From Neocallimastix sp. 'constans' (lineage: Eukaryota): a DNA stretch of 64,000 nt. The DNA lies in contig JBODTK010000013.1 of NCBI GenBank assembly GCA_050613775.1, positions 434,001-498,000 of the forward strand, given 5' to 3'. Below the pieces are notes generated by a model that was not told where the DNA came from, did no database searches, and was given only the letters and a program-made list of their open reading frames with translations. Position numbers and translations under genes: made by a program. Shown here piece after piece: positions 1,595 to 57,271 of this stretch. Within the stretch, counting starts at the first letter, position 1. Each line of letters starts with the position of its first letter.

Positions 1595-1821
1595 AAAAAA
1601 ATAAATACTTAATAATGACTTTAATATATTTTACCCAATCAAAATATTATTATATTTAAATAAAATTATAAAAGAAATAAAATGTAACCTTGTTAAAAAC
1701 AGATACACCTTTGTAATTATAAAAAATAAAGATAAATAAAATTAAATATTAAGTATTATATATAAAATGCTATTCTAAAAATATATCTAATTTTCTCAAT
1801 ATTTATTTTTGGTGTTTAATA
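1582..1821 (+). repeat. 3' LTR of copia A (~240 bp)
   Basis: Starts TGTTAGAAT directly after the PPT and aligns end to end with 2261-2502. Terminus reads AATA (inferred decayed AACA). Confidence 0.85.
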
Positions 1822-4800: not shown

Positions 4801-6916
4801 GCAAACTATATTCATAATCGACTTCCCCATCAAAGCATTCAAAACAAAATTCATTTGAAGTATTTTATAATAAGCCTGTAGTTTACATTACATTTAGAGT
4901 ATTCAGATGTAGAGTCTATCTCTTTGTGCCAAAGGAACTAAGATCAAAATTTGACAATAATTCACATCCTTGTATTTTTCTTGAATATTGCGATCATACT
5001 TCCACTTACAAAATTCTTGATGTTATCAATAACAAAATCATCTAATCTCGCACTGTAGAATTTATGGAAAACGAACCAGGAAATTCCTTTTTAAATCGTA
5101 TTCATTCCAATAACAAATTCAGGGAGAGCAATTGTCTAAACTGACTTAGATACAGTAATGAAATTAATGATTATAATAATAAAATAACTGACATTATCAA
5201 TGAAAGAAATGTTAAAACAAATACTAACCAGAATAAAAAAATTAAACATCAATCCAAAAACAAATCTTCTAAAACAAATAGAATTAGTCATAAATATTAT
5301 CCCAATTATCAAAATAATTACTAAAATATTATTATTAATAATAGTATTAAAAATAATAATAATAAAAATAGCAACAATACTACTGACATTAATACATTCA
5401 ATAATAGCAACAACAATATTTTCAATCAAAAATCATTAAATTCAAATGATTACAATTTCAATAAAAATTAAATCAATATTAATAATGAAATTAAAAATAA
5501 AACTGAAAATGATAACAATAAAATATCAACAGAAAACCAAAAAGAAATTAACAGAATCAATAATATATATAACACAAATAAACAAAAAAATACAAACTAC
5601 CAAAATCATGAAAATTTAAAAAGGAATTTAAATAATTTTACAATTAATTCAAATAATAGTAAAAAAATAAACAATATTGATGAATCAGAAATGAAAATTA
5701 ATGAAAATACAATAATTGAACCATATAACTTCAAGGATATATTCAAATTTAAAGATAAAATGGAATGGCTAAACGTAATCAAGAAAGAATTAGAAATCAT
5801 GAAAAATCTTAATGTTTATAAAATTGTTAAAACAGTACCATCAGGATCCAACATTATATCATCATGTTGGGTATTTAAATATAAAAGGGATGCAAGCGAA
5901 AATGTTATTAAAAGAAAAGCAAGGTTAGTTGCCAAAGGATTCAATAGAATAAAAAGCGAGTCATGTGTTTATATAAAATTAAACAAAGAGAAGGAAATAG
6001 TTTGTATTCTCTTAGTATACATCGATGACATTCTCATTACAGGAACAAATCAAGAAATAGATAAAGTAAAACAATCTATAAAAAGGAAGTTCAATATAAA
6101 GGATATTGGTGATATTGAATTTGTAATTGGAAAAAATTTACCAAAACTTTAAATGGTTACATTTTACATCAAGGTAGATACATAAATGACATATTAAATA
6201 AATTTAATATTAACAACTTAACACCATTAAAAAATCTTATGCCATTAGTAAATCCAAATCTAAGAACCAAAAAATTCAATGAAACAAAATACCGAAGTGC
6301 AATAGGAAGTTTACTATATTTAGCTATCTGTACCCGTCCTGATATTCTTTTTGCTGTTAGCAGAGCTTCAAGAAAATCAACAGATCCCAACTTAGAAGAT
6401 TGGATGAATGTTTTAAAAATTTTTAGATATCTCAAATATACAAAAAATAATGGAATCAAAAGAGAAAAGGGAATGAAATTAAAAATATATGTCAATGCCG
6501 ATTTTACTGGCGATCTAAAAACAAGAAAATCAACTTCTGGATTCCTTATGTTAATGGGGGACACTCCAACAAGTTGGTATTCCAAATTATAGCATTGTGT
6601 CTCCACTTCAACTACAGAAGATGAATATTACAGTTTAAGTGAATGTGCAAAACATTCATTGTGGTACAAAAATTTATTAAACGAATTAAATATAGATATA
6701 AAAGAAATAACAATTTTCGTAGACAATATAGCAACAATATATAATAGTGAAAATCAATCAATAAATCCGAAATCAAAACACATTGACATTAGGTATCATC
6801 ATATTAGGTACTTGGTAAATAAAAAAAATCATAAATTTGAAATATATAAAATCAAAGGACAACCTGGCTGATGGCTTTACAAAACATTTGAATAATACTT
6901 TAATGGACAAATTTAG
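1822..6916 (+). mobile_element. Degenerate Ty1/copia element B (same family as D): leader + gag-pol pseudogene, 3'-truncated, no LTRs in view
   Basis: Colinear with D 15709-20917. Zinc knuckle, ILDSGAS protease, WHRRLGH/CxxC and SDNG integrase, YIDD RT, RNase H. Multiple stops and frameshifts, gag ATG deleted, ~295-bp deletion in RT. Confidence 0.92.
2261..2502 (+). mobile_element. Solo LTR of the copia A family inserted in the leader of copia B
   Basis: Homologous to 1582-1821 and flanked by the 5-bp TSD TCTAT (2256-2260, 2503-2507). The empty site AATCTATATAAATAGATT is present in element D near 16130. Confidence 0.9.
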
Positions 6917-7380
6917 GTTCTTATAATCATTATCTTGCTTGTCATCAAGGTGAAAATGATTCCTTAGTAATAATGTGTATAGCTGGTTCCCATTATGGTG
7001 CAAGAGATGAATATCCAAAAAAAGGAGAAAATTGGTCAAAACTTTATGGACCATATTTAATTTATTTGAATAAGGCAAAGACTCCATAAGCTTCATGGTG
7101 AGATGCTAAAGCAGTAGTCAAAGTTGAAAAAGATAAATGACTCTATTTATTTCAGATATAAATTTTGAAAAAGAGTTCAATATTATATTGTAGGATTATA
7201 AATTATAAAGTAGATAGCCAATATTATGTTTTGTTTGGTTACGGCTATACACACTAGAAATAAATCAATAGTCATATTTAATCATCATCATAGTTTATCA
7301 ATATTAGAAAATTTCTTTACTGAAGCTTTTGTTGAATTGGTCCCCTCTCATCGTTTCGTATACTAATTTAACATTAACTA
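6917..7380 (-). pseudogene. Decayed coding-like relic, possibly a retrotransposon gag fragment
   Basis: GC higher than the flanks; an interrupted frame reads STLTTALASHHEAYGVFALFK*IKYGP*SFDQFL. Family assignment is only an impression. Confidence 0.25.
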
Positions 7381-8605
7381 TTTAATTTAGATCTATAATA
7401 AAATACTGAAACTTTTACAATAATTGTGAAATTGGATTCATTATTATCATGAAATGTTATTTCTATTGTTTGAATCAATATTTTGAATATTTAAATTGAA
7501 AATATTTTTTTAATTTAATTAATTAGTTTAGTTTGCCTAGTTTAGTTTTAAATAGTTACATATTAATTTAGGAATAATCTGAAATAGTTAATATTAATAA
7601 AAATAGTTTTTCAATATTAAATATATAATTAAAATTATTATAAGTATTAAAATAGTAAATAAAATAAATAGTATAATAAATTAATTTTGGTTTTAGTAAA
7701 TTAATAAATAATAATTTATTAATTAAAAATCTTTTTTTATAAATAAATAGCTTTATATATATTATTAAATAACATCATGCATTAATAATGTAACAAGAAA
7801 AAAAATAAATACATGTAATTTTTCTCTTTTAAATAGATGTATTAGTTATTAACTATTTTCAGTTAATAACATAAAAGAAATTTATATTTAATACAAGAAT
7901 TTATTAATAAAAGAATTTATTTATTTTTATTTGTTTAAATTGTGTAGTGTTTTTTATTGTTATAATCTGTTTTAATTGACAGATTGATTACAGTGATGAT
8001 AATGGTACTTATGATAAAATATATAATGATTTAAATTATTTTAATTTTAAAGAAAAGGAAATAGAAAACTTTAAAATTCTTTTGGAGTATTATGCAGAAC
8101 TTAAAATTAAATTAGATAATAAAAACACTATATTAGTAGAATTATTGGAAAGAAATTTACGAATAATATATAAAGTTATTTTTTGATTTTTTAATTAAAG
8201 AAAATAAAAAAGCAAGAAAGAGAAAATGAAATGTTTATTAATAATTTTTATTATAAGTATATATATATTTTTTCTAAGAGATATTTTACATTAAATTTAT
8301 TTCATATTTTTATATCTTAGTTAACATTATTTAATTTACTTAGAGATTAATTATTAGTTGATATAAATTAATAATATAAATAAATGTATGTAACGATTTC
8401 GTCTCTAACACTATATTTCATTTTATATTAACCAATCAATTAGTTTAATAAATAATATTCATGTATAAAAGCTTTCTAAATAAATATGTTTTTCTTTAGT
8501 TCTATTTTTATAAAAAAAAAATATATATATTAATAAATAATATAATATCTAAAATATAAATAAATTAAACTATTATTTAATTATATAAACATTATTGTGT
8601 CTAAA

Positions 8606-11374
8606 GATTAAGAGTCTCAATCTACTAATTGAGTTTGAATTAAAATAAAGTTAAGTTATATTATAAATTAAATTTTTCTATTTTTACCTTTCAATAAAAC
8701 CAAAGAACTAATAAATTATTATTTTTATTATTTATTGTATTTTATTTATTACCGAATCAAATCCGTAAGAAATAAAGATATTTTTTTAATCAACAATAAA
8801 TAAAATTATAGTTAAATTGTCAAATAATAAAAAATAAAATTAATATCATCAAGATGAAAAATTTATTGTCAACTGATGATATTAATATTAAAATAAAATA
8901 AACATAGTATCATCAAGATGAAAATTAAATAGTCAACTGATGGTATTTAGATAAATTTGAAACTAAAATATTATTAATATAAAAAAATATAAATAAATTA
9001 AAATAATAATAAAAAAATTAATTATACGTATTAAATAAAATTTTGAATAAATCACATTATATAATATATCAAATATATTAAAATGAAATTATAAAATTAA
9101 TCAATGAATAAAAAAATTAAAAAATCGAATCAAATAATAATCACCTTTTATTTAATCAAAATTAATAGTAAATTAAATAATATAAATGCCTTATTTATTA
9201 AAGTTTGGTATTACAACACTAAATTAGATAAAAATAGTAACAAATTAGTGAAATCAAATTTAAATAAAAATTAAAATGAGAATTTTTTTAATATAACAAA
9301 TTAATTCTAATAAATTAATAAAAATTAACAGAATTAAATATTATAATATTTTTTTTAAAACTACAAAATATTTTTATTAATAAAGATATTAAAAAATAGT
9401 TATAATTAATTTAAAACAATAATAAAAATTTAAGATTTCAAAAGTACTCGAAATGGCTGGAAGAAGAAGAAACCAAGAACAAGTTATCAACCTCACCTAA
9501 AAAGATATTACACATAATGGAATAACCTTTAATTATTCCGAAAATTTCAATCAAATTACTGAACTAAATACAGAAAGCTACCCTGGTTGGAGAAGAAAAA
9601 TTCTGTATTTGCTAACAATAAATAAATTAACCAAATATGTTCTTCATCCAATTGTAAAGAAGTTAAGAAAGAGAGAAATAAAAGAAGAATTAACAGATTA
9701 CCCGGAGGATCAATTTGATAGTTCGTTAGTTTATGAAAAGAACACTATAAACATTGATATAACTAACGACATCACGGCCAAATGGATTATCATAAATGGG
9801 CTTGGAGAACAAACACAAAAACTAATAAATGGAAATGAAAAGACCGCTTTTCAAATTTGGAACATCTTCTAAGAATCGTTTACCAAAAGCAAGGAAAGAA
9901 GAAAAATCGAAATTCAAAATAAAATTGAAACAATGAAGTTTGATACCAAGACCGATATAAATATATTCATTGCCAATTTGCAAAATTTAATAGACGAACT
10001 TGAGAAAAATGACAATGACCTTAGTATAAATACAAAAATCGGCATTCTAAATAGAAGCTTACCCGAAGATCTAAAGTGGATAAACGTCTTTCAACATAAG
10101 AGTTGGGAATCATGCTGCTCATACGTTAAGGAAATCATACCTAATATCGTTTTATCTAATTTAAAAGAAAAAAATTCCATTCAGGAAAACAAGAATAATG
10201 TTCTCTTCAATGCTGAAACAAAAAAGAGTAAGAATTATCGAAACAAAAATAGAACTAAAGGTAAAAGGAAAAGCCTCAAAAAGAGTAGTGGAAGATGCAA
10301 CTATTGTGGAAGAAGAGGACATTACTTCTATGAATGTAAATTCAGAAAAAATAATTTATATAAAAATCAAAACAAAAATAAATTCAATAAAAGAATTAAA
10401 ACAAAAAAAAATTTCAAAACGATATTAATTATGTGAACACTAATGATGCCTCTTCAAGTAATTATGACACAATATACGCAGATGCCTTTACTAAAGATTA
10501 TAATACAGAAAATAATATTGAATTAAATTACTGTAACGTTGAAAAAGAATTTTTAAATGAAGATAGTGACAAAAACTTTCTTTCATGTTGGATTTTGGAC
10601 TCCGGTGCTTCAATCAATATCACAAGCAATCTTAATCTTCTAATAGACATAAAAAAATGTAATGAAGAAATTAATCTAGCTAATGGACAAATAATTAAAG
10701 CAGTCCATAAAGGAAAATTTAAAGGGTATGTAAACAACAATGAAATAATACTTAATGAGGTATACTACTCTCCGGCCATCAATAAAAATTTAATATCAAT
10801 TTGCAAATTACTAAAAGAAAATTACAAAATTATTTTTAATAATTCAAATAATAAATCATATACAATCATTTACGATAGTAACGATAAAAGAATAATTAAC
10901 ATCACTGCAACCAAGACTAATACATTTAAAATTTGGTTTTCCAATAATAAAATAAATCTCAATAATAATAACAATCAACATAATAATTTAGAAATAAATT
11001 TCACTACACCAAATGCAGCAAAGAGATTAAATTTATGGCATAGAAGATTATGTCATTTTGATATTAGTCATATTAAAAACAAATTATTAAAACTTAATAC
11101 ACCAGTTAATCAATGCCCAATTTGTATGAATTCAAAACTTAAAAACAAACCATATAAGCAAGCAATAAATAAGTCGAAACATATATTTGAATTACTTCAT
11201 ATGGACTTGGTTGGTCCTCTTCCTGAATCACTTTATGGTAACAAATATCTTTTTACAACCCTCGATGACTATTCACGCTATGGATGGACTTTGTTTTTAA
11301 AATCTAAAAGTGACACCTTTAACTCATTTTACAATTGGTTTTTAAGTATTAAAAATAAGTATAATACTAGAATT
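8606..11374 (+). mobile_element. Ty1/copia element C: PBS, leader, gag-protease and N-terminal integrase; truncated within integrase
   Basis: PBS GATTAAGAGTCTCAATCT at 8606; ATG 9453; CNYCGRRGHYFYEC knuckle; WILDSGAS; WHRRLCH...CPIC; HMDLVGP. Stops at 9498 and 9870 and a frameshift near 10430. Start of the 5' LTR could not be defined. Confidence 0.88.
8839..8947 (+). repeat. Two tandem hairpin repeats in the leader of copia C
   Basis: TATCATCAAGATGAAAA(N)GTCAACTGATG occurs twice. The first copy has a 13-bp perfect stem (ATTAATATCATCA/TGATGATATTAAT). Confidence 0.75.
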
Positions 11375-11545
11375 ATATATATTAAGTATGTATAATCGTA
11401 TATATATCAACGTTTTTATTGTTAAAGAAAAAAAAAAGTTTAGAATTATAACTTAAGCACGTTTTATAGTATTTCGAGTATTTATGTATTTGTAAAATAT
11501 CGGATAATCATATATTAAATTTTATATTAAAATATATTTTTAACA
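11375..11545 (-). repeat. Partial LTR of the copia E family
   Basis: Aligns with ~49100-49274 (TTAAGCACGTTTTATAGTATTTCGAGTA...ATATTTTTAACA). Confidence 0.88.
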
Positions 11546-11929
11546 TTTTTAAATTGAAAATAAATCATTTTACTTATAATATTAAAATAATAAATAAATA
11601 ATAAATGTACTTAATTTAAATTACTTAGTATTTAGTTTAATTAATAATTATATTTTTCTAAATTTAGCTATAATTTATAAATTTATTATTTAATAAAATT
11701 CATTAGGATAGTTTTATATTAAAATATATGTAAATTAAATAAAATAATATATTATCAATGTATTTAAGAAAAGTATAAATAGAAGATATTTTTCACATTT
11801 TTTTTCGATGTAATTGTTATTAACTATTAATAAATGTATAACATTAAGAAAAAATATTTTTAATAAAAAATTTTTAATAAAATAAATTATTATTGTGTTG
11901 TTATTGTAATCTATTTTGGTGTTTCTTTT

Positions 11930-13758
11930 ACAATTAAAGCCTTACCACGAACTCCATCTACTATTGCATCAACCATAGCAATATAATTTTCTTGTGGTTC
12001 ATGATGTTTATTTTTATATGTATGATCTATATTGTTTGTTATTATAGTAGTAGCACCCATTTTATCCACTGCACCTGAAATTTTAGTATTATTCTTTTCT
12101 AATTTAAGTCCTTGAGATACTTGAAACCGTATCTTTGGAGCAACGTCCAATAATTGTCCAAATGTAATATTGCAATTACTGGAGTTTAAATCTTTTATCA
12201 CATCATAACTATCACAATCAGTTTTCATTTGTATTCTTCTTGGAATTCTAGTTGGCATAATTTCAGTTGACTTTTCTGATGATTTTCTTGAATTAATTTA
12301 TTTAAAGTTCGTTTAGAATTATTTACCTCCTGAGAAGTTTCTTCATTAATAATATTTACATTACTATTTTTATTATTTTCCACAGAAGTACTAGTACTAG
12401 TTCTTTTCTTATCTCTTAACTCTTTCTCAATTCTCTTTTCTTTCTCTATTCTGGGTTGAGCCATAATCGAAAGATGTAATTGAGCTGTTGGATTTTTGAC
12501 TGGTCGCGATGTTCCCCTTAATTGATTTTCTTTTTGTTTTCTTAAACCTGGAATAACTATTGGCTTAGGATCATCTCTTAGACTACGGTGAACTCTCTTT
12601 TCTCTTTGGTCTCTAGTCTCTTCATCTTTATGATTTGCCTTTCTCTTTATAACATTTACTAAGTAATCTAATTCTTTGAAACCATCCGACTCATTATCAA
12701 AATCTTCATAATAATCCATAGTTGTACCTTCTTGAAAATAAGCAATTTCTTCATAGTCATCATCTTCTTTTAAATCAACTGTTATAGGACGATGGAAGAC
12801 TGAAGCATTTTTTTTGATGATGGGAGTGCTTCTACTCCCTTTTAGTGGTTTAAATGATTTTCATAAAACTTCTTGCGGTTATTTTCCAATATAGAATTTA
12901 ATTTAGGACAGTTTCGTTTAGTATGTTCTTCATTGCTTCAAAACCAGCAAGTACTAATTTTCATTTCTTTCATCTTGTTAGTGAGATTTTATATAGATAC
13001 ATTTTTGTGGGTTTTTGGTTTGTTAAAATCATTTGAAATGCTCTACTTAAAATTACTTTTAGAGTTAAGGAGATTGTAACGAGTCTTATCATAATATTCA
13101 TTACTATTTTTAATAGATAAACGATCAACTTTTTCAGCTATAGAGAATGCTTTGGTAATAGAAATATGGTCTTTAAGCATAACCTTTCTCCATGCGTCAG
13201 GATTATTGGTTAAGGAATCTGCATAATCTAAAACATTAATATTTCTTCTTCTCTTTTATCCAATTTATGGTACAAAGATCTATAACAGACATTAAAATCT
13301 TTAACTTTCTCGTTCTTCTTTATTCTCATAGAACGCAATTCTCGTAACAAATTGGTTTGATCTTCTTTAAGTCCATAAAAAGTCTTCAGATGATTTATTA
13401 TTTCATCAAGGCTTGGGTAGGTGCTAGTCGATTCACTTTCTTCATCATCTTCTCATTCACTATCACTATCGAAATCAGAATCTTAATCTTCAGTAAGGTC
13501 ATTTCCATCTTCTAGTTTTTGGATAATCTCTCTAGGTTCTCCAGAAGTCGTTAATATACAAGCAGTAAAACTAGTTTCAGGATCCTTGATATGTTAGTAT
13601 TTTGTTCATGCCTTTAACTCATTTGCCCAGGAATTAATGTCAAGATTTTATTTAGTAAGCTTTTCAAAATCTTTTAATTCTTTCTTAAATTCTCTGAAGC
13701 TGAGCTTATTTTCTGGAGTACTCTCTGTTGGAGTACTGGAAGTATTGGATGTTCCCAT
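11930..13758 (-). pseudogene. Ty3/gypsy-like gag and start of aspartic protease, decayed and truncated
   Basis: ATG at 13758; degenerate knuckle CWF*SNEEHTKRNCP (~12905-12950); ITFGQLLDVAPKIR; AIVDGVRGKALI truncated just before the expected DTG/DSG; many stops. Confidence 0.7.
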
Positions 13759-14242
13759 AAAATAAAATTTATTGTATCTATAAAATGCTAAACCTCTTAA
13801 TTTATAAATTGTTATAAAAAATAAAAATAAAAAAAATAAAAAAAAATAAATCTTTTTACTAATAAAATTATTAATTATTTATTATTATTAATCACTTATT
13901 AAATTATAATAATCGTACAATCTGATAGTACACACTGTCTGACGTGCAGCTTACCTCTTGAAAGGTATCATATCATGTGTTTGCCACAGTTACTATTTTC
14001 AATATAAAAAATAGCAGTCTAGAGCCTAATAGCCCAGTTACTATGTAGGTTAAACTTAATCCGGAAATCTACGCAAGAATATTAGTTTAATTTAATAATA
14101 ATTAATATTTTTAACAATTAATAATAATTAGTTAAAAATATAAAAATTGTTTTTTTTTTCTTTTAAAAAAAAAATATTTGTTTTATTGGAAAATTATTTA
14201 TTTATATTATAATTATATCCCAATGTATTAATTTATTATTAT

Positions 14243-14784: not shown

Positions 14785-14911
14785 TAATATGTTAAGTGGG
14801 CAAGGACAATATTCTTAGCTAGAGATTTTAATGCAATATAACGGAATTGGATCGATGATTCAATAAGGAATTATAAGTTGATTGGTGATTTATTAACTTA
14901 ATAGTTCTAGT
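14785..14911 (+). pseudogene. Probable non-LTR (LINE) APE endonuclease relic interrupted by copia D; appears to continue after 21279
   Basis: Reads TIFLARDFNAI*RNW...IGDLL (GDFN motif with G>R). The right flank of D reads INTFTEGS*ELKHIFF (TF...IDHIF-like). Confidence 0.4.
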
Positions 14912-15169
14912 TGTCAAAATAATGATTAATTTAATTAATCTATCTTTAATATAAATAATGACCAATTACTTGTATTAATATTTAAAATAAAAAGTATAAA
15001 AATCATGGAATTATTATTTTATAAAAAAATCATATCTTATACAAAAGAGAATAAAAATAATTTATACTGTTATAAAAAAATATTTTTCTAAAAACTACTA
15101 ATCCATATATATTTATTATTGTGTTTATTATAACTTATTTGAGTGTTTCTTAACATAATATTTTTGACA
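14912..15169 (+). repeat. 5' LTR of copia D
   Basis: TGTCAAAA...TTTTGACA terminal inverted repeat; direct repeat of 21021-21278. Confidence 0.96.
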
Positions 15170-15196
15170 GATTAAGAGTCTCAATCTCAACCGATT
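15170..15196 (+). promoter_or_regulatory. Primer-binding site complementary to the 5' half of tRNA-Lys(CUU)
   Basis: Reverse complement AATCGGTTGAGATTGAGACTCTTAATC resembles the D-loop to anticodon arm of tRNA-Lys-CTT (TCGGTAGAGCATGAGACTCTTAATC). Abuts the LTR. Confidence 0.8.
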
Positions 15197-15420
15197 AATC
15201 CATATAAAAGTTAAGTATTTTTTTTTTAAAATAAAAATTTAACATTAAATAAATTTGAAATTTATATATTTATTATTAAATATTAATTTTTAATTATTTA
15301 TATATATATATAAATATTTATAAATTATAAAACTAAAATAAAAGTGGAATCTTTAATATTTAAAATAATTGTACAAAGAAGTCCAATATCAATATAATTG
15401 AATTTGAAAATAAACAAAAG

Positions 15421-15730
15421 GTCAGCTATTAGACATAAGCTAAGGATGAAATAAAAGATCAGCTATTGAATATAAGCTGAGAATGAAACAAAAAATCAAC
15501 TATATTATATAAGCTGAGAATAAAAGAACATAACATGTCAGCTATGTTATATAAGCTGAGGATAAAAGAACATAACATGTCAGCTATACTATATAAGCTG
15601 AGGATAAAAGAACATAACATGTCAGCTATGTTATATAAGCTGAGAATAAAAGAACATAACATGTCAGCTATGTTATATAAGCTGAGGATAAAAGAACATA
15701 ACATGTCAGCTATGCTATATAAGCTGGGAA
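15421..15730 (+). repeat. Array of 8 palindromic hairpin repeats (37-42 bp period) in the leader of copia D
   Basis: TCAGCT-N10-AGCTGA-type units at 15422, 15459, 15496, 15538, 15580, 15622, 15664 and 15706 (three have one stem mismatch). Confidence 0.95.
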
Positions 15731-16349
15731 AAATATAATAAAAAATTCAATTATATAATAAATAATTAAAATAAAGATTTTAATTAAAATGAAATTATAA
15801 TAATATATTAAATATGAACAATTAATGATATAATCATTTTCACAACAATAACAAAAATTTTTAAATACACTTAATATAAATAAATTAATCTCTTTATACT
15901 ATTGTTCGTAATATAAATATATACAATACTTTATAATAAACATTAATAAAAATAATTTATTCTTAATTAAAAAAGGAATAGTAACATAATCACATTCACA
16001 TTATTTAATAAAAGAATCAAAATGATAGGTTTCAATAATAATAAAATTATACTAATTCCTCCATCAATATTAAAAAAAAATGTATATTAATATCTTTAAA
16101 TTAAATTTTTTAAATATTAATCATTAAAAAATCTATATAAATAGATTAATAATAAATTGTCACTAAAAATAGAACCAATCAAAATTAATTACAATTTACA
16201 TTATTTAATTTAATAAAATAAAATCTAACTAAAGAAATAAAAAATATATAAAAGACAAATTAAAGAAAAGCAATAAAAAATAAATTAAGAAAATAATAAA
16301 ACATAAATACTTTTAATTAAAATAAGAAGGTAAAAATAAAAAATAGAAA

Positions 16350-19300
16350 ATGAGCAGAAACAATTCAAGAAGTAACTCCAGAAACCAAATCATCGAAATT
16401 CCCGAATCAGAAAGTAATTTCTTCGCTAAAGGAATCTCTTTCAATTACTCCGAGAATTTCAATCATGTTACCGAATTAACGGTTGAAAACTTCCAAGATT
16501 GGAAAACTAACGTATTGGACCTCTTAATCATCAATAATCTAGATGAATACGTTAGTTTACCAAAAGTAAAAAATTGAGAAAGAAGGATATTAAAGAAGAT
16601 TTAGATAAGTACATTAAAGATAAATTTAATAATTCTCTTGTTTACGATATTGGGACAAACCAAACAGATATCAAGAATGACATCATGGTCAAATGGATAA
16701 TTAATAATAGCCTGGGAAAGAAAACGAAAGAAATAATAAAAAGCCATAGTAAGACCGCCTTCGAAATGTGGAACTTCCTTCAAGATTCCTTTACTTTAGG
16801 AGAAGAGCATCAAAAAATGCTATTACGAAATAAATTAAACAGATTGAAATTTACCACAGATGATGACATACGTATCTTCCTTGCAACACTTCAAAATATG
16901 ATCGATGAATTGGAAATCATTGATACAGACATGAGTGATAGTGTAAAGGTAGGGATTCTGAATAGAGCCTTACCTGAAAATCTAAGGTGGATAAATGTTT
17001 TCCAGTACAATAATGAATGGATAAAATGTTGCAATTACGTAAAAAGAATAATACCAGATATTCTTTTCTCGAACATCAAGGAAAGAAAACTTCAAGAAGA
17101 AAACGCAAAAAATATTTTTAATTTACAAACTGAAAACAAAAATAAACAAAATAATAAGCATTTAAAAATAAGAAGAAGAAAAAATGGAAAATGTTTCTTA
17201 TGTGGAAAATACGGCCACTACAAAAAGGAATGTTATAAGTATAAAAGAAATAAGCTCTTGAATCAAAACAATGAAAATAAATCAATGAAAATTCGAAGAA
17301 AATTGAACAAAAAATATAATAAAAGTAAAATTAATAACAAGCATTTATATTCAATAAGCAATTACAACAACTATAAAGACGACTACTTAGAAGATTTTTC
17401 TAAAGATTATAACTCTGACAATGCAATCGAAATTAATTGTTTAGAAAGAATAAATAATAAAAATCACGAAAATAGTAATATATATAATAATAACTTCATA
17501 GTTTGGATTTTAGATTCAGGTGCTTCAATCAGTACTATTAATGACATAAAATTTCTTACTAACATTAAAAAATGTAAAACAAAAATTTTACTAGCGAATG
17601 GTAAAGAAGTATTATCTGAATTTTGTGGCGATTTTGTAGGATTCATTAACAACAACAAATTCATTTTAAAAAATGTTTATTATTCACGATATATTAAGAG
17701 AAACTTAATTTCAATCAATCAATTAATTTCTCAAAATTATAAAGTAATATTCAATAATTATGACAACTCCCCACAAGCATTAATTTATGATAATAATTGA
17801 AATAGAATTTATAAATCTTTATCTAATGATAAAAATACATATCAAATTTTCACTTCCAAACACCAAACAAATTTAAATTCAACAAAACATAACGAAATCA
17901 ATTATACAGTATCAAATAACCAACAAGTAATAGACCTTTGGCATAGACGCCTAGGTCATTATGATATTTCTAAAATAAAAAATAAATTAAGTAATATCAA
18001 TCTAAAATTAAAATGCCCAGTATGTATTAATTCCAAATTAAAAAATAAGTCATTTAAACCATCTACCAATAAGACTAAACAAATTTTAGAATTAATACAT
18101 CTAGATCTTGTAGGACCTGTTAATCCTTCAATAAATAACAATAAGTATTTCCTTACAATTTTAGATGACTACTCTAGATATGGATGGGTCATCTTCACTG
18201 AAAATAAAAATGATGTATTTAACAAATTTATCATTTGGTATAATAAAATTTATAATTCATTAAATATAAATATCAAAGCAATTCGATCTGATAATGGGAA
18301 GGAATTTCAAAATAGTAAATTTCAAATTTTCTGTGAAGAAAATGGAATTCATCATCAGTTTTCAGTTCCTTATAACCCTTCTCAAAATGGAAGGGCTGAA
18401 AGATTTAATGGTATACTCATTGCTTCTTCAAAATCACTTCTTAACGACGCTAAACTCAGTCATGATTTTTGGGAGTTTGCTGTTGATACTGCAAACTATA
18501 TTCATAATCGACTTCCCCATCAAGGCATTCAAAACAAAATTCCATTTGAAGTATTTTATAATAAGCCTGTAGTTTACAATACATTTAGAGTATTCAGATG
18601 TAGAGTCTATTTCTTTGTGCCAAAGGAACTAAGATCAAAATTTGACAATAATTCACATCCTGGTATTTTTCTTGGATATGGCGATCATCCTTCCACTTAC
18701 AAAATTCTTGATGTTATCAATAATAAAATCATCCAATCTCGCACTGTAGAATTTATGGAAAATGAACCAGGAAATTCCTTTTTAAATCGTATTCATTCCA
18801 ATAACAAATTCAGGGAGAGCAACTGTCTAAACCGACTTAGATACCGTAATGAAATTGATGATTATAATAATAAAATAACAGATATTATCAATGAAAGAAA
18901 TGCTACAACAAATTTTAACCAGAATAGAAATATTAACCAGAATAAAAATATTAAAAATCAATCCAAAAATAAATCCTCTAAAACAAATAGAATTAGTCGT
19001 AAATATTATCCCAATTATCAAAATAATAATAAAAAAATTATCATTAATAACAGTAATCAAAATAATAATAATGAAAATAACAGCAATACTATTGACAATA
19101 ATTCAATCAATAATAGTAACAATACTTTTAATCAGGAATTGTTAAATTCAAATGATCACAATTTCAATAATAATTCAATCAATATTAATAATGAAATTAA
19201 AAATACGACTGAAAATGATAACAACAAAATATCAACAGAAAACCAACAAGAAATTAACAACATTAATAATAAATATAACACAAATAAAGAGAAAAATCAA

Positions 19301-20948
19301 AACTATCAACATCCTAAAAATTCAAAAAGGAATTTAAACAATTTTACAATTAATTCAAATAAAAGAAAAAAAATAAACAACACAGATGAATCAGACATGA
19401 AAATTAATGAAAATACATTAATTGAACCATATAACTTCAAGGATATATTCAAATTTAAAGATAAAATAGAATGGCTAAACGCAATCAAGAAAGAATTAGA
19501 AATCATGAAAAATCTTGATGTTTATAAAATTGTTAAAACAGTACCATCAGGATCCAACGTAATATCATCACGATGGGTATTTAAGTATAAATGAGATGCA
19601 AACGGAAATGTTATTAAAAGAAAGGCAAGATTAGTTGCAAAAGGATACACTCAACAGTACGGTATCGACTACAAAGAAACATTTGCACCAACACTAAAAC
19701 AGGATACAGTTCGAATCATTACAGTTATCGCGGTTCAGAAAAAATTTCAATATTGTTCAAATAGACATCAATTCAGCTTATTTAAATGCACCATTAAATG
19801 AGCATATATACATGAAAGCACCAGAGGGTCATCCATCTTACGGAAAATCTTTTTGGGAACTTCACAAAGCTCTTTACGGCTTAAAACAAGCTGGTAAAGA
19901 ATGGAATGATAAACTCAATGAAGAATTGATAAAAATAGGTTTCAATAGAATAAAAAGTGAGCCATGTGTTTATATTAAATTAAACAATGGGAAGGAAATA
20001 GTTTGTATTCTCTCAGTATACGTTGATGACATTCTCATTGCAGGAACAAATCAAGAAATAAATAAAGTAAAACAATCTATTCAAAGGAAGTTCAATATAA
20101 AGGATATTGGGGATGTTGAATTTGTAATTGGAATAAAATTTACCAAAACTTTAAATGGTTACATTTTACATCAAGGTAGATATATAAATGACATTTTAAA
20201 TAAATTCGATATTAGCAACTTAACACCAGTAAAAAATCTTATGCCATTAGTAAATCCAAATCTAAGAACCAAGAAATTCAATGAAACAAAATACCGAAGT
20301 GCAATAGGAAGTTTACTATATTTAGCTATCTGTACCCGTCCTGATATTCTTTTTGCTGTTAGTAGAGCTTCAAGAAAATCAACAGATCCCAACTTAGAAG
20401 ATTGGATGAATGTTTTAAAAATTGTTAGATATCTCAAATATACAAAAAATTATGGAATCAAAATAGAAAAGGGAATGAATTTAAAAATATTTGTAGATGC
20501 CGATTTTGCTGGCGATCCGAATACAAGAAAATCAACTTCTGGATTTCTCATGTTAATGGGGGACACTCCAACAAGTTGGTATTCCAAATTACAGCACTGT
20601 GTCTCCACCTCAACTACAGAAGCTGAATATTATAGCTTAAGTGAATGCGCAAAACATTCATTATGGTACAAAAATTTACTAAACGAATTAAACATAAATA
20701 TCAAAGAAATAACAATTTTCGTAGACAATAAAGCAACAATATATAATAGTGAAAATCAATCAATAAATCCGAAATCAAAACACATTGATATTAGGTATCA
20801 TCATATTAGGGATTTAGTAAATAAGAAAATTATAAAATTAAAATACATAAAATCAAAGGACAACCTTGCTGATGGTTTTACAAAATACTTAAATAACTCT
20901 TTAATGGACAAATTTAGAAATACCTTATTAACGAAAATAATTAATTAA
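16350..20948 (+). pseudogene. gag-pol polyprotein of copia D with four lesions
   Basis: ATG 16350; A-run frameshifts at ~16570 and ~19745; in-frame TGA at 17798 and 19592. CFLCGKYGHYKKEC, LDSGAS, HHCC/DDE integrase, YVDD and DADFAGD are all present. Confidence 0.93.
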
Positions 20949-21020: not shown

Positions 21021-21278
21021 TGTCAAAATAATGATTAATTTAATTAATCTATCTTTAATATAAATAATGACCAATTACTTGTATTAATATTTAAAATAAA
21101 AAGTATAAAAATCATGGAATTATTATTTTATAAAAAAATCATATCTTATACAAAAGAGAATAAAAATAATTTATACTGTTATAAAAAAATATTTTTCTAA
21201 AAACTACTAATCCATATATATTTATTATTGTGTTTATTATAACTTATTTGAGTGTTTCTTAACATAATTTTTTTGACA
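21021..21278 (+). repeat. 3' LTR of copia D
   Basis: Direct repeat of 14912-15169, preceded by the PPT. Confidence 0.96.
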
Positions 21279-23426
21279 GAAATAAATACATTTACTGAAG
21301 GATCCTAAGAATTAAAACATATTTTTTTTTGTAGTTCTAGTTAAAAATATGAGGTCTTGTCTTCTTAAAGTAAATGAGAACTATAAAAAGAACTATAAAG
21401 CAAAATAAGTATTCTACTGATAGATAAATTTAAATTTTAATAAATGATATCTGTTGTATTGTAGAATATAAATTACAATTAGAAGAACCGTATTTTTTTT
21501 CTAATAATCACCAAATGAAAAATATCTAGAAATCAATCCATGAAAAATATTAAATGGGAAAATAGAAGAAGGAGGCAGTTGTAAATAATAATTTTGTTAT
21601 CAAATTTTTTATATACTTATATACATGTTATATTATTTGTCTTAAAATTAGAGAATCCTCCAAAATTTATTTAACGTAAAAATTTTTGTAAATTCCTTTT
21701 TAAAAAAGGAGGAACGTATGAACTCGAAGAAAAATTTGAATGGTTCGCCTTTATTCTATTTCAAATGATTAGTTAAAAATATAATTCTATTATTGTACCA
21801 CATTTCTAATAATAAAATTGAAAATTTTATTTATTAATTTATTAGGAACCTTCATGGCTTCTAATGTTTCTGCTGTCAGTTCGATAAAAAACAATAATTC
21901 ATACATTTTAAAGAATAACTACGCTAGTATTTTTATTTCTAAGAAAGATAATAATATTACTTTATTTAAGATTGCTAGTGACAATAAAGAATTTTTAAAT
22001 AGATCCTATATTGAAACTAATAATAATATTAGCTGACAATATTTTTTCAGCTTAATATTAGATGATTATTGAATATTTTATATTTATATTCATTATTTTT
22101 TTTATTTAAAATTATTTTAATATTAATTTTATTTTATTGATTTTTTATTTTTTTTTTTTTATTTCTGAGAAGTGATTTATTTATTTATATATATTTTACT
22201 GAATTTAATCAGCTCAATTTTTATTTAATTATATGTGTAATTAAATTTTTATAATCATTTTATTTCTTTTTATAGAACTATATTTAATATAATATTTATT
22301 TATAAGATTTTTCAAAAATAAATTTCTTATTTATAAAAAATAAAAATAAGAATACTTATCTTAGTTTTTCTTTCAGGAGATATGTTTAATTGAATTTCTT
22401 TATTAAATAGGTTTTATTATATTTATTTTTATAAAGTATAATATTATTAATTTTAGTATTGAATAATAATTAATTTTTATTTTGAAATTATAGTTATATA
22501 TATTTAAAATAAAATATGAATTAATAATTTTATAAATATTATATGCATATAAATTTTAATTTTTAATTATATTATAAAATAAATATAATATTATTTTATT
22601 TATTTTTACTTCACTTTATAGTTGTTTTATTAAGATTATACAAATATATATTATTGGTTATATATACTTGATATTATATATATTTTAAAAAATGTATTAA
22701 GAAACTCCTTAATATCATAAAAGTACAAAACTTTAATTTTATATTTTTAACCAAATGTTTGTAATTTAATTTATTTTATGAATATATAATTTTATATAAT
22801 ATATTAAATAAAAAATTTTCGTCATAATTATTTTATTATTGAAAAATAAAATATAAGTAATCAAATATTTTTATATAATAAAATAACTTCTTTTAAATTA
22901 TAAATTATTTTTATACATATTTCATTTATATTTAATATTTGCATTTTTATTTGTATTTTCTTTATGTTTGTTATTGATTATATAATATTATATATTAAAA
23001 AGAAAATAAAAATTAAATAAAAAAATTAAAAATATTATGTTTAAAATTTTAATTATTATTTTATATAAGTTCTAATTGTATTAAATATATATATTTAAGT
23101 AATAATGAAGTGTAAATTTATAGATATAAAAAAAATAAAGTTAAAGTGAAAATAAAAAAAGATACTTCATAATATAAAATTAAATAATACTATAACTACA
23201 TATATTTGAATTTTTTAATTTTGAAGATTATGATTTATAAAGATAATCTTAGGATTTCCATTGAAGAAAAGGATTTCTTCAAAATCTCTATGAATGTAAT
23301 TTATTTAATACTTAAAGAGAAAATTATTTAATATAATTTCCTTTTTATAGCTTTATGAAAATTTCGATAAACAGATTTTATTTTATTTTATTTTTTAATT
23401 ATATAATACTAAACCTTTTCCATTAC

Positions 23427-36976: not shown

Positions 36977-37018
<42 letters not shown>

Positions 37019-49429: not shown

Positions 49430-52400
49430 TTATTCAATTTTAGTAAGAAGGGAAATTCTAAATTTATCCATTAAAGTATTGTTTAAGTATTTCGTGAATC
49501 CGTCGGCTAAATTTTCTTTAGTGTTTATGTAATTCAATTTGATTAATCCTTTATTAACAAGATCTCTAATATGATGATACCGAATATCAATGTGTTTCGA
49601 CTTGGGATTAATTGACTGATTCTCACTATTATATATTGTTGCTTTATTGTCGACGAAAATTTTTACATTATTAATTTTTATTCCAAGTTCGTTTAATAAA
49701 TTCTTATACCATAATGAATGCTTTGCGCATTCGCTTAAACTATAATACTCAGCTTCGGCCGTTGAGGGAGAAACGCAATGTTGCAATTTCGAGAACCAAC
49801 TGGTTGGCGTTCTTCCCATCATCATCAGGAATCCTGAAGTAGATTTTCTTGTGATTGAGTCTCTAGCGAAATCTGCGTCTACATAAACCTTAAGGTTAAT
49901 ACCTTTTTCAATTTTTATACCATAGTTTTTTGTGTACATTAAGTATCTGAATATTTTAAGAACATTATTCCAATCCTCTAAGTTAGGGTTATTGGATTTT
50001 CTTGCTGCTCTGCTCACAGCAAATAGGATATCAGGTCGGGTACAAATAGCAAGATACAATAGGTTCCCAATGGCACTTCGGTATTTCGTTTCATTAAATT
50101 TTATGCATTTCAATTTATTGTTTTCCACTGGTATTAAATTTTTCGATGGTGTAAGTTTATTAATTTCATATTTGAATAATATATCGTTAATATATCTTAT
50201 TTGATGTAAAATATAGCCATTTCTGATCTTATTAAATTTAATTCCTATAACGAATTCTACATTACCTATATCTTTAATATTAAATTTTCTTTTTATTGAA
50301 TCTTTTACAATTTTGATTTCATGATCTGTTCCCGCAATTAATATATCATCTACGTATACCGACAAAATGCATATTGTTTTATTATTCCTATCTGTCTTAA
50401 TATAAACGCAAGGTTCACTCTTAGCTCTTCTAAAATTTAATTTGAGAAGCTCATTATTCAATTTTTCGTTCCATTCTTTTCCAGCTTGCTTTAAGCCATA
50501 AAGGGCTTTTTTAAGCTTCCAAAAACATTTATTGAATGAATGATGACCTTCGGGAGATTTCATATATATATCATCTTTTAAATCTGCATTAAGGTATGCA
50601 GAGTTAATGTCTATTTGTTCGATATTAAAATTATGCTGAACAGCTATTGCTGTGATAATCCTTATTGTATCTTGTTTTAAAGTTGGAGCAAACGTTTCCT
50701 TGAAATCAATTCCATACTGCTGCGTATAACCTTTCGCAACTAATCTTGCTTTTCTTTTTATTATATTACCGTTTGAGTCTCTTTTATATTTAAATACCCA
50801 ACGTGATGATATAACGTTAGATCCTTCTGGAACTGAATTTACAATCTGAAAAACATTTAGCTTTTCCATATTTTTTAATTCTTCATTTACGGCTTCCATC
50901 CATTGCTCTTTATCTTTAAGGTTAAATATATCTTTAAAGTTATATGGTTCTCTGAATATATTGTTTTCTTCATTTAATTTTGATATATTCTTTTCACTAT
51001 ATTTTATTCTTTTGCTTGATGCTTTTGCTTCATAATTAATGTTTCTTTTATTTGTATTATTGTTTGTTGTATTGTCTTGATAGTGGGATATTTCAATTTT
51101 ATTGTTATTAGTATTGTTTAATTTATTTACGTAATTAATTGTACTTTCCATATTAGATTCTTCAGTTGTATTTTTATTAGGAATATTATCATTATTTTTA
51201 TTAAGATTATTGGTAATATTATTGTCATTAAATTCATTATTTCTATAGTTTCTTGTATTAGTGTTGCAAATATTATTGTTGTTTAATTTATTATTATTAT
51301 TGATTGATGAATCATTGATATAGATATTACTTTTATTATTAGTGTTATTTTTATTGTTATTATTGAAAGTATTATTACTAGTATTGTTAATGTTGTTTTC
51401 ATTATTGATGTTGATATTATTTGAAGTAATGTTGTCATTTCCTGAATTATTATTATCTTCTGGATTATCATTTTTATTTTGTTTTTGTTTTTTATAAGTT
51501 TTATGTTTATTTTTATTTCTTAAAATATTGCTATTATATTGTGAATCGTTAATATTATTATAGTTATTTTGATAGTTGTGATTGTTGTTGTTGTATTTTT
51601 GATAATTATAATTGTTATAATTATTGTTTGAAAAATTTTTGACTGAGTAATCATTCACCCTGAATTCGTTATTGGAATTATAGTTTAGTAAGACTGAATT
51701 TCCAGGATCGTTTTCAAAGAATTGGACAGTTCGAGATAGCACGATTTTATTGTTGGTTAAATCAAGGATTTTATAAGATGATGGGTTATTGCAATATCCT
51801 AAGAAAATTCCAGGGTGTGAATTATTATCAAATTTGGATCGTAGTTCTTTTGGTATAAAGAAAAATACTCTACATCCAAAAACTCTAAATATGATGTAAT
51901 CAACAGGTTTATTATATAGAATCTCAAATGGTACTTTATTGTTTATACCCTGATGGGGTAAACGATTGTGAATAAAATTTACTGTATCAACAGCAAATTC
52001 CCAAAAATTATGAGAAAGTTTTGATTCATTTAGTAGAGCTTTTGCGGAAGATATAAGTATGCCGTTGAATCGTTCAGCTTTCCCGTTTTGGGCTGGATTA
52101 TATGGTATAGTGTATTGATGTATTATACCATTATTTTGACAGAATATTTTGAAATTATTATTAAAAAATTCCCTTCCATTATCTGATCGAATATTTTTGA
52201 TTTTAATGCTGAATGTGTTTAAAACTTCTTTGTACCAAATAATGAATTTATTAAATGTTTCATTTTTATGTTGTAGGAATAAGACCCAGCCATATCTAGA
52301 AAAGTCATCCAGGATTGTGAGGAAGTATATATTCTTATTTAAGGATGGCAATACGGGGCCCACTAAATCAAGATGTATAAGTTCGAAAATGTGTTTTGTT

Positions 52401-54139
52401 TTATTAATTGATCTTTTGAAAGGTTTGTTCCTTAATTTTGAATTGGAACATATTTGACATTTGTGATTTGTATTTGTATTAGTATTTTTTAAATTATCTT
52501 TTATTTTAGTAATGTCGAAATGACCCAGGCGTCTATGCCAAAGATCAAAATCTTGTTTATTGTTGATATGTGTTGAATTAATTTCATTTAAATTTTCGAA
52601 ATTATTGTTCTTATGAAAAATGGATGGTGCTTTTGATAAATATATTTTAAATATATTTTTATTGTCTGCTGCTGATTGATATATTCTATTACCTTTGTCG
52701 TCATAGATGATTGCGATTTGTGAGTTTTTATAGTTATTGAAAACAATTTTATAATTTTGTGTTATTAATTGATTAATTGATATTAAATTTTTCTTGATAA
52801 ATTTAGAATAATGAACGTTCTTTAAAATAAATTTATGATTGTTTATATATGCATTGAAATCACCAATGTAGTTAGCATATGTTTCCTTTCCATTGGCAAG
52901 AGATATTTTTATTTTTTCTTTTCTGATGTTTGATAATATATTAATGTTATTTGTTACATTAATTGAGGCACCGGAATCCAGAATCCATTGTGTAATATTA
53001 TTATTGTTGCTTCTTATATCAATTTTTGTTGGCTTGTTAATCTCTAAACTGTTTAATTCAAAACAGTTGTCTGAGTTATAATCTCTTGAGAAGTCTTCTT
53101 GGTAGTTTTCATTATAATCCTTTTTATCGTTTAATAGATATGCATGACCTTCTCTTGGTTTTTCTTTGTTGAATTTTTTTGTATTACCTTTTCTTTTATG
53201 TTGTTTGTTGTTTCTTTTGTTTTTATTGAATTTGTTTTTTAAGCAGTCTTTTCGGTAGTGTCCGAACTTTCCACAAAGGTAGCATTTTCCATTTTTTCTT
53301 TTCTTGTATTTTATTTTCTTAGGTTTAGAGATTTTTCGTCCATTTTATAAACTAAATATATTCTTCGGATTTTGTTCGATTAAAGCTGTTTCCCTGATAT
53401 TGGAGAAAACAATATCTGGTATTATCCTTTTGACATAGTCGCAGCATTTTGTCCAATTATTATTGTATTGGAAAACATTAATGAATCTAATGTTTTCAGG
53501 GAGAGCTCGATTTAAAATACCGACCTTAACATTGTCAATAATATCGGAGTCTATTCTTTCCAATTCATCCAGGAGATTTTGTAAGACAGCTAAGAAAATA
53601 TGGACATCATCTTCTAAATTATATTTCAATTTATTGATTTTGTCTTTCAGGACCATTTTTCTTTGTTCAGGTCCTATGGTAAAAGACTTGTTAAGTAGTT
53701 CCCATAATTGGAAGGCCGTTTTGCTTTGACTTTCCAATATTTTCTTGGTGTTCTCACCAAGATTATTTGTTATGATCCATTTTACTAATATGTCATTTTT
53801 AATATCTTTTTCGCTTGTTCCGATTTCGTACACAAGGGAATTATCGAATTTATCAATCGTATATTTTTCAATGCTTTCTGTTATATCTCTCCTTCTTATC
53901 TTTTTCACTTTTTCATGACTTATGTAGTCATCGAGGTTATTAATACAAAGGAGATAAAGGATATTTGTTTTCCAGTTAACAAAGTTATCTGTTGTCAATT
54001 CCGTAATATGGTTAAAGTTTTCACTGTAGTTAAAAGTGAACCCCTTTTGTGTGGGTTCATATTCACTGATGTTTATTATTTGGTCTTAGGTAGAATTGAT
54101 ACTATTTCTAGAATTACTTCTTAAGTTATTTCTGCTCAT
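49430..54139 (-). pseudogene. gag-pol of copia E: single 1570-codon frame with two in-frame TAA stops
   Basis: ATG 54139; TAA at 54088-54086 and 53347-53345. I translated 53344-52364 by hand and it is open (CYLCGKFGHYRKDC, WILDSGAS, WHRRLGH) and continuous with the 977-aa IN-RT-RH ORF. Confidence 0.93.
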
Positions 54140-55310: not shown

Positions 55311-55617
55311 TTTTTGATTTTACTGTCAATTTCTATTTAAATTTTTAAAACTATAATTTAATTTTATTTTTGATTAATCGGCTCCTTATATTATCTTATT
55401 ATTTTAATAACTCGTATGAAATTATTTTTTAATGTTTTTGTTTAGAATTGGATATTTTGTTGAATTATTATTATTTTATATATTATTATTAATTTTATTT
55501 TATTTATTATTATTTAAAATAAATGAAAAAAAAAATAAATTAGTATGAATTTATATTTATCTGTCTTAAATAAGTATATATATTACTGTAGCTATTAATA
55601 CTTAACTTTCATTCTAT

Positions 55618-55647
55618 CTCAATCGGTTGAGATTGAGACTCTTAATC
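55618..55647 (-). promoter_or_regulatory. Primer-binding site complementary to the 5' half of tRNA-Lys(CUU)
   Basis: + strand reads CTCAATCGGTTGAGATTGAGACTCTTAATC, equivalent to tRNA nt ~11-40; 27 nt identical to the D PBS. Confidence 0.8.
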
Positions 55648-55934
55648 TGTTAATAAACACACAATTAAGAGACACACAATATTAAGATAATATTATAATT
55701 ATGTTTAAGTAAAGATGTTTTATATTCTTTATTATATATTAATACTTATTATTATAAATATATATAATTAAGTATGTATGATCGTATATATATATTAAGG
55801 TTTTTTATTGTTAAAGAGATAAAAAATAATTAGGATTATTATTTAAGCACGTTTTATAGTATTTCGAGTATTTTGTATTTGTAAAATATTGGATAATCAT
55901 AGATTAAATTTTATATTAAAATATATTTTTAACA
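55648..55934 (-). repeat. 5' LTR of copia E
   Basis: Direct repeat of 48988-49274, adjacent to the PBS. Confidence 0.96.

Positions 55935-57240: not shown

Positions 57241-57271
<31 letters not shown>

What the first reader, a model, noticed from the sequence alone, without database searches (positions are those of the whole stretch)
15170..15196. Reverse transcription apparently primed by a 5' half of tRNA-Lys(CUU)
Seen: elements C (8606), D (15170) and E (55647, minus) all have GATTAAGAGTCTCAATCT immediately after the LTR, with no TGG. Established: canonical PBSs start with TGG and pair with the tRNA CCA end; Drosophila copia and yeast Ty5 use a 5' fragment of initiator tRNA-Met, and Candida Tca2 an internal tRNA-Arg region. 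The complement here matches the conserved tRNA-Lys-CTT segment TCGGTAGAGCATGAGACTCTTAATC at 22/25 nt (recalled sequence) and ends at nt 40 in the anticodon stem. Inference: priming by a cleaved tRNA-Lys half with extended D-arm pairing (up to ~30 nt in E), possibly linking transposition to tRNA cleavage.
Basis: partly seen in the sequence, partly recalled or inferred. Interest (0 to 1): 0.78.

Follow-up and report, generated by a model that had tools for sequence, protein, structure and literature searches.

The report
Copia primer site for half tRNA-Lys
Three copia-type jumping genes, probably of an anaerobic gut fungus, carry at their start a 14-base site that matches the middle of a lysine tRNA rather than its end, so they likely begin copying themselves from a cut tRNA, a trick already described, with this same tRNA, in other fungi.

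Summary
Real, but already in print. The site is at 8606, 15170 and 55647(-) (3 exact hits), in Ty1/copia elements. In D and E it starts at the first base after the LTR; for C that cannot be proven. Against a proxy tRNA-Lys(CUU) gene from a viral contig, 6 of 6 sites (three here, three relatives) pair perfectly with nt 27-40. Four to five of 6 pair further into the D-arm above chance. Priming at nt 40 is the known hemivirus mechanism. An identical 11-nt core, assigned to internal tRNA-Lys, is published for the fungal FunCo1 clade (PMC5445492), and this scan found it before in other genomes. What is new is modest: a well-supported copia clade with Orpinomyces-named members, outside FunCo1's reported range, plus D-arm pairing and a conserved downstream box. 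The host tRNA was not seen, FunCo1 membership could not be tested, and nothing here ties transposition to stress-induced tRNA cleavage.

The parts
14912..15169 (+). 5' LTR of copia element D (TG...CA)
   Evidence: 257 of 258 identical to 21021-21278
15170..15183 (+). Element D primer-binding core, complementary to tRNA-Lys(CUU) nt 27-40
   Evidence: proxy tRNA L003
15184..15196 (+). Element D extension, partly complementary to the D-arm (nt 14-24)
   Evidence: p=0.002 shuffled, p=0.02 GC-matched
15207..15214 (+). Conserved 8-nt box downstream of the primer site in D, partner unknown
16556..20948 (+). Element D gag-pol (gag, protease, integrase, RT order; broken into three frames)
   Evidence: Pfam PF14223, PF22936, PF00665, PF07727
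21021..21278 (+). 3' LTR of D, preceded by a polypurine tract; no target duplication around D
55648..55934 (-). 5' LTR of copia element E (TG...CA)
   Evidence: 284 of 287 identical to 48988-49274; 5-bp target duplication
55634..55647 (-). Element E primer-binding core (tRNA nt 27-40)
55614..55633 (-). Element E extension, complementary to tRNA nt 7-24 at 16 of 20 positions; also folds on itself as a 9-bp hairpin with the core
   Evidence: z -4.3; p=0.001; p=0.001
55602..55609 (-). Conserved 8-nt box downstream of the primer site in E
49430..54085 (-). Element E gag-pol, one in-frame stop after gag at 53345-53347
   Evidence: relatives have a single frame of 1532-1538 aa
48988..49274 (-). 3' LTR of E, preceded by a polypurine tract
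8411..8605 (+). Probable remnant of the 5' LTR of element C (ends in AA; interrupted upstream by an opposite-strand LTR)
   Evidence: no second LTR to confirm
8606..8619 (+). Element C primer-binding core (tRNA nt 27-40)
8620..8636 (+). Element C extension, D-arm pairing with a gap
   Evidence: p=0.0005 shuffled, p=0.002 GC-matched
8647..8654 (+). Conserved 8-nt box downstream of the primer site in C
9515..11345 (+). Element C gag, protease and start of integrase; truncated by an E-like LTR fragment

Best explanation
These are Ty1/copia retrotransposons whose primer-binding site is complementary to nt 27-40 of a tRNA-Lys(CUU), and which likely start minus-strand DNA synthesis from a 5' fragment of that tRNA ending at or just before nt 40, as copia and Ty5 do with initiator tRNA-Met. 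Shown by sequence: copia domain order, spacing 0 after the LTR in D and E, a perfect 14-nt match, and its conservation across families with unalignable LTRs. Inferred steps: (1) host tRNA-Lys(CUU) is packaged and annealed over the anticodon arm, with looser pairing to the D-arm helping to open the tRNA; (2) it is cut in the 3' strand of the anticodon stem by an unknown nuclease, leaving a 3'-OH; (3) RT extends from there into U5; (4) plus-strand synthesis copies the primer back as far as nt 27, which would keep exactly these 14 bases invariant while the D-arm part drifts. The primer cannot end beyond nt 40 if the LTR is to keep its terminal CA; an end at nt 38-39 with integrase trimming cannot be excluded.
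For: Three exact sites against 0.31 expected. Copia domains. E has an exact LTR boundary fixed by a 5-bp target duplication. A protein-based search blind to the primer site gave 159 loci; 6 are close relatives (46-69% identity), and 3 of these 6 carry the same 14 bases at the start of the internal region. All 6 sites pair perfectly with nt 27-40. D-arm extension: p<=0.01 in 5 of 6 against shuffles, p<0.05 in 4 of 6 against GC-matched window pieces. Predicted annealing to the tRNA half is favourable in all 6, even against E's own hairpin (-12 to -25 kcal/mol). 26 of 31 loci with a half-Met site show the same spacing-0 geometry after CA. Hemiviruses start at nt 40 (PMC1181622, passages); FunCo1 has the same core (PMC5445492, passages).
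Against: The host's tRNA-Lys(CUU) was not seen; the comparison rests on a viral-contig gene (L003). L004 shows no extension (p=0.57 and 0.78) and L149 is marginal in the stricter control (p=0.054). Three of the 6 close relatives show no site: L005 and L086 lack the 5' end, and L085 has 1.7 kb upstream without a recognisable LTR or site. C and L149 have AA, not CA, before the site. The last LTR base could also pair with nt 41, so the match alone does not fix the primer end. No experiment on any Lys-half element was found in the papers read.
Confidence: 0.82

Rival explanations
1. Half-tRNA-Lys priming is right, but the D-arm extension does no work: it is a decaying relic of a once-captured tRNA copy, or is kept as a hairpin of the element RNA.
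For: L004 lacks the extension. Each family has different mismatches, and nt 25-26 are unpaired in nearly all (1 of 6 and 0 of 6). E folds the region into a 9-bp hairpin (z -4.3).
Against: Families with unalignable LTRs keep pairing to nt 14-20 in 5-6 of 6 predicted duplexes. The hairpin is not significant in C or D (z +1.0 and +0.8 over 81 nt). Candida elements also have extended internal pairing.
Confidence: 0.3
2. The primer is drawn from the host's stress-induced pool of tRNA halves, so transposition follows tRNA cleavage.
For: Only that the primer must be a cut tRNA; copia's primer is listed among tRNA-half functions in a review (PMC10275265, passages).
Against: Stress halves are cut in the anticodon loop and end in a cyclic phosphate (recalled, no call). 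The site needs pairing through nt 40, so a loop-cut half would leave the first five or six bases of the site unpaired with a primer. No small-RNA data were examined.
Confidence: 0.08
3. Self-priming as in Tf1 or TAR: the site pairs with the 5' end of the element's own transcript.
For: U5 holds a short complement of the site: an 8-bp run in E and 7 in L004; E folds a U5-site hairpin.
Against: Best runs are only 6 (D), 5 (C remnant) and 5 (L084), against 14 with the tRNA. The complement lies 16-41 nt upstream of the site and is not conserved, while the site is invariant.
Confidence: 0.04
4. The primer is the natural 3' end of some other RNA that resembles the tRNA-Lys anticodon arm (a tRNA-derived repeat or a truncated tRNA gene).
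For: All families mismatch the proxy at nt 26 and most at nt 25 and 21, so the true partner differs somewhat from the proxy.
Against: Host-versus-proxy differences explain this more simply. No tRNA or Rfam family lies in the window. The same register is used with many tRNA species.
Confidence: 0.05

Closest known systems
FunCo1 clade of fungal Copia elements (Donnart et al. 2017, PMC5445492; passages read, 6 supplements searched, 2 slide files unreadable)
   Same: The 11-nt site printed for FunCo1 equals window 15171-15181 and is assigned there to an internal region of tRNA-Lys.
   Different: FunCo1 is reported almost only from Pezizomycotina (plus 2 copies in Lipomyces; none in 245 Basidiomycota genomes). 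These elements sit in a 21% GC genome with Orpinomyces-named relatives. The passages give 11 nt, no register, no D-arm pairing and no mechanism.
Hemivirus-type priming: Drosophila copia, yeast Ty5, Osser, 1731 (PMC1181622 passages; ICTV profile PMC8515867 whole text)
   Same: Copia superfamily; site complementary to the anticodon stem-loop with synthesis from nt 40; single gag-pol frame in intact relatives (single frame in copia and Ty5 is recalled).
   Different: Primer is tRNA-Lys(CUU), not initiator tRNA-Met. Half-tRNA users are not monophyletic, and no named hemivirus was in my tree.
Candida albicans elements using internal tRNA-Arg(UCU) (review PMC4139406, passages)
   Same: Elongator tRNA used internally; some families have an extensive region of homology and some a short one, as E against L004 here.
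   Different: Different tRNA and host; the primary paper (Matthews 1997) was not available.
Rust-fungus Copia and Helenus families (Kojima 2024, PMC10886601, passages); plant Bianca, Osser, Bryco, Gymco-II (PMC6317226, passages)
   Same: Anticodon-loop sites for tRNA-Tyr, -Ile, -Asp and -iMet in fungi, half-Met and half-Ile in plants; primer switching is described as recurrent.
   Different: Internal tRNA-Lys is not among those named in the passages read.

Membership tests
Ty1/copia (Pseudoviridae) | gag-protease-integrase-RT domain order with RVT_2-type RT | tested here: met
   (D and E)
Ty1/copia (Pseudoviridae) | Two TG...CA LTRs, polypurine tract, 5-bp target duplication | tested here: met
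   All in E; D has LTRs and tract but no duplication; C is truncated
Half-tRNA-primed copia (hemivirus-type mechanism) | Site next to the 5' LTR, without TGG, complementary to the anticodon arm up to nt 40 | tested here: met
   6 of 6 sites pair with nt 27-40 of proxy tRNA L003
Half-tRNA-primed copia (hemivirus-type mechanism) | Match to the host's own tRNA | not testable with these tools
   No host genome is held; no tRNA in the window or in 24 of 159 loci scanned
Half-tRNA-primed copia (hemivirus-type mechanism) | tRNA fragment covalently joined to strong-stop cDNA | not testable with these tools
   Needs particles
Genus Hemivirus (ICTV) | Short tRNA segment as primer, initiator tRNA-Met in the named members | tested here: inconclusive
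   Short segment met, tRNA identity differs; the genus is defined partly by primer length and is under revision
FunCo1 clade | 11-nt internal tRNA-Lys site | tested here: met
FunCo1 clade | RT/RNase H groups with FunCo1 elements in a supported clade | not testable with these tools
   No FunCo1 reference sequence was obtained. No Pezizomycotina name among the 120 best hits of either protein search (most hits unnamed). The clade's sister group is unresolved
FunCo1 clade | Host in Pezizomycotina | tested here: not met
   20.7% GC, nearest named proteins from Orpinomyces, element found mainly in animal faeces runs; host assignment is inferred
Self-priming LTR elements (Tf1, TAR) | Site perfectly complementary to a stretch of the element's own 5' LTR | tested here: not met
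   Longest runs 5-8 bp, not conserved

The most novel reading that the evidence does not exclude
A gut-fungal copia clade switched to tRNA-Lys(CUU) independently of FunCo1 and uses a three-part primer contact: an invariant nt 27-40 core renewed by copying each cycle, a selected D-arm segment, and a downstream box that grips the tRNA 5' end or the LTR end. Together these would unfold the tRNA and set the cut at nt 40, giving a natural series for finding the nuclease that makes half-tRNA primers.
Probability: 0.2. Interest if true: 0.45.

Novelty: new member of a known kind. Interest (0 to 1): 0.2.

Why it matters
It extends internal tRNA-Lys priming from filamentous ascomycetes to what is probably an early-diverging fungal lineage, so the site is either very old or has arisen more than once. 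It also gives a register (nt 27-40) and D-arm contacts that the FunCo1 passages do not. Annotation tools that look for TGG would miss these elements. It does not add a mechanism, and anaerobic gut fungi are a poor system for testing one.

Tried and rejected
Host tRNA: no genome is held; no tRNA in the window or in 24 of 159 loci; a pattern scan of viral contigs gave only 3 viral tRNA-Lys(CUU) genes, used as proxy. Variation among copies of the element in other samples was not measured. Relatives in viral contigs: 0 of 8 and 0 of 35 candidates confirmed. Rfam on the window: 0 hits. FunCo1 reference: none in the 6 readable supplements of PMC5445492 (two slide files with the trees could not be read and may bear on clade placement); PMC5004834 passages give no site sequence; the two Paracoccidioides copia in the supplement of PMC4427930 begin with what I read as half-Met sites. 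Atlas: only generic RVT_2 clusters. Conserved hairpin as the function of the extension: rejected as general, significant only in E. Programmed readthrough at E's gag stop: rejected, D has stops elsewhere and relatives have one frame. Half-Arg site: 2 loose hits, not at the elements' junctions; one label (L055) and one loose Met label (L106) were dropped before the tree. An exact 11-mer in L014 lies on the opposite strand away from any LTR junction and was not counted. Not in print: searches listed no paper on primer sites of anaerobic-fungal copia (listings only; subscription journals and Repbase are not covered).

Full report
Observation. Its first 14 bases match exactly 3 times in the window; shuffles give 0.31 matches on average even with two mismatches allowed. 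Pfam shows gag, protease, integrase and RVT_2 in copia order downstream of D and E, and gag and protease downstream of C. D has LTRs identical at 257 of 258 bases but no target duplication; E has LTRs identical at 284 of 287 and a 5-bp duplication that fixes both ends. In D and E the site starts at the first base after the terminal CA. C has no second LTR, ends in AA before the site, and is interrupted upstream and truncated downstream by other LTRs, so its junction is probable only.

Host. The window is 20.7% GC. The nearest named proteins come from Orpinomyces, at 60-63% identity in RT-RNase H. Of 24 runs listed, 20 hold element E in whole or part, 17 of these being animal faeces samples. 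An anaerobic gut fungus is therefore likely; this is inference. No host genome is held and the host tRNA was not seen.

Register on the tRNA. A scan of viral contigs gave three tRNA-Lys(CUU) genes; L003 served as proxy. A protein-based search, blind to the primer site, gave 80 metagenome loci (the best of 578 relatives, from 2 of 64 parts of the collection) and 79 loci from genome contigs (of 170 relatives). Six of the 159 are close relatives (46-69% identity). L004, L084 and L149 carry the same 14 bases at the start of the internal region: after CA in two, at a contig edge after AA in L149. L005 and L086 lack the 5' end, and L085 shows no recognisable 5' LTR or site. No other locus has the motif at an LTR junction. 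All 6 sites pair perfectly with nt 27-40 and none with nt 26. The last LTR base could pair with nt 41, but a primer reaching nt 41 would remove the A of the terminal CA, so the primer should end at nt 40 or slightly before (inference).

Extension. With the core fixed and the next 31 bases shuffled, pairing to the tRNA 5' half is better than chance in C (p=0.0005), D (0.002), E (0.001), L084 (0.01) and L149 (0.008), but not L004 (0.57). With GC-matched window pieces as control the values are 0.002, 0.02, 0.001, 0.023, 0.054 and 0.78. E pairs at 30 of 34 positions. The LTRs of these families do not align, so the shared D-arm pairing is not simply recent common sequence. E's extension also folds on itself (z -4.3), but C's and D's do not. 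An 8-nt box lies 35-42 bases from the start of the site: exact in C, D and E, one mismatch in L084 and L149, absent in L004; an exact match arises in about 1% of shuffled tails. The box was picked after inspection and its partner is unknown.

Phylogeny. A FastTree tree of RT-RNase H used 230 of 261 rows (31 plant and arachnid proteins dropped as redundant; 11 loci and 11 proteins were too short to enter). The window's elements fall in a clade of 61 (support 1.00) with two Orpinomyces-named proteins. All Lys-type sites lie in a sub-clade of 45 (1.00): D, E and L084 together, L004 on a separate branch, L149 on a third through its 99.9% match to P0019, and C by best hits only. The site is thus probably ancestral to that sub-clade. 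The backbone is unresolved (support 0.08-0.73 near the clade), so no sister group or direction of switching can be given. By recalled motifs, 54 of 159 loci could be typed: 31 half-Met, 19 Met 3' end, 3 Lys-half, 1 doubtful Arg. Half-Met sites are scattered over the tree, and 26 of 31 follow CA at spacing 0, the same geometry as here.

Mechanism. Most likely (0.82) the element RNA anneals tRNA-Lys(CUU) over the anticodon arm, helped by looser D-arm pairing. The tRNA is then cut in the anticodon stem and RT starts from about nt 40. Plus-strand copying of the primer back to nt 27 would explain why exactly 14 bases are invariant; a modified base at nt 26 could be the stop (recalled for other tRNAs, untested). 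Self-priming is unlikely: the longest complement in the elements' own LTRs is 5-8 bp and not conserved. A link to stress-induced tRNA cleavage has no support here, and loop-cut halves (recalled) would not reach nt 40.

Comparison with what is known. Donnart et al. 2017 (PMC5445492, passages) state that FunCo1 elements have an 11-nt site complementary to an internal region of tRNA-Lys; it equals window 15171-15181. They report FunCo1 almost only from Pezizomycotina. Hemiviruses prime from nt 40 of a half tRNA and are not monophyletic (PMC1181622, passages; PMC8515867, whole text). Candida elements use internal tRNA-Arg with long or short homology (PMC4139406, passages). Rust-fungus copia use anticodon loops of Tyr, Ile, Asp and iMet (PMC10886601, passages), and plant lineages half-Met and half-Ile (PMC6317226, passages). 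The primary papers on copia, Ty5 and Tca2 were not seen. Earlier notes of this scan record the Lys(CUU) site 4 times in at least 2 other genomes; they are unchecked and not counted as support. The elements work like hemiviruses and share FunCo1's site. Whether they belong to FunCo1 could not be tested, because no reference sequence was obtained; the host criterion is not met, and no Pezizomycotina name appeared among the 120 best hits of either protein search, a weak negative since most hits are unnamed.

Verdict. Observation confirmed; interpretation right as to mechanism, wrong as to novelty. New member of a known kind; interest 0.2. Five searches listed no paper on primer sites of anaerobic-fungal copia, so the host range, the D-arm pairing and the downstream box may be unreported details.

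Noticed in passing
window 23427-42462 (-): A 3266-codon open frame plus several upstream frames encode a very large cysteine-rich repeat protein with a hydrophobic C-terminus and no Pfam family above its cut-off. It resembles the membrane-anchored cellulosome scaffoldins of anaerobic fungi (recalled, untested).
   Followed up: partly
window 15207-15214, 55602-55609 (-), 8647-8654; L084, L149: Conserved 8-nt box 35-42 bases from the start of the primer site. It could pair with the tRNA 5' end, the anticodon loop or the LTR end; none was tested.
   Followed up: partly
window 14907-14911 and 21279-21283: Element D has almost identical LTRs but no target-site duplication, suggesting recombination between copies, a flank deletion or an assembly join.
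   Followed up: partly
window 8344-8410 (-): An LTR start 98.5% identical over 67 bases to the 3' LTR of L085 sits in opposite orientation just upstream of C's LTR remnant.
   Followed up: partly
window 1-6916: Two further copia fragments: A (RT end and 3' LTR, 1 to about 1820) and B (1821-6916, 82-93% like D), both without a visible primer site; a second copy of A's LTR appears near 2260.
   Followed up: partly
window 11347-11547: LTR fragment 86-87% like E's LTR truncates element C within the integrase region.
   Followed up: no
window 11900-13800 (-): Decayed frames with higher GC that look like the gag-protease region of another, possibly Ty3/gypsy-type, element (by eye; no Pfam hit for 12228-12860).
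   Followed up: no
window 6917-7200: Directly after B's RT end lies a short decayed coding stretch that by eye resembles a carbohydrate lyase gene fragment (recalled, untested).
   Followed up: no
window 44800-46500 and 56300-64000: Long arrays of 7-14% GC simple repeats, in opposite orientations on either side of element E.
   Followed up: no
window 15407-15778 and 54864-55312: The leaders of D and E hold related tandem repeats of about 42 bases between the primer site and gag.
   Followed up: no
L084-L162: 79 copia loci lie in contigs filed under bacterial or archaeal genomes and are most likely eukaryotic contamination; four close relatives are 25-31% GC contigs in Methanobrevibacter, Methanosphaera and Erysipelotrichaceae bins.
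   Followed up: no
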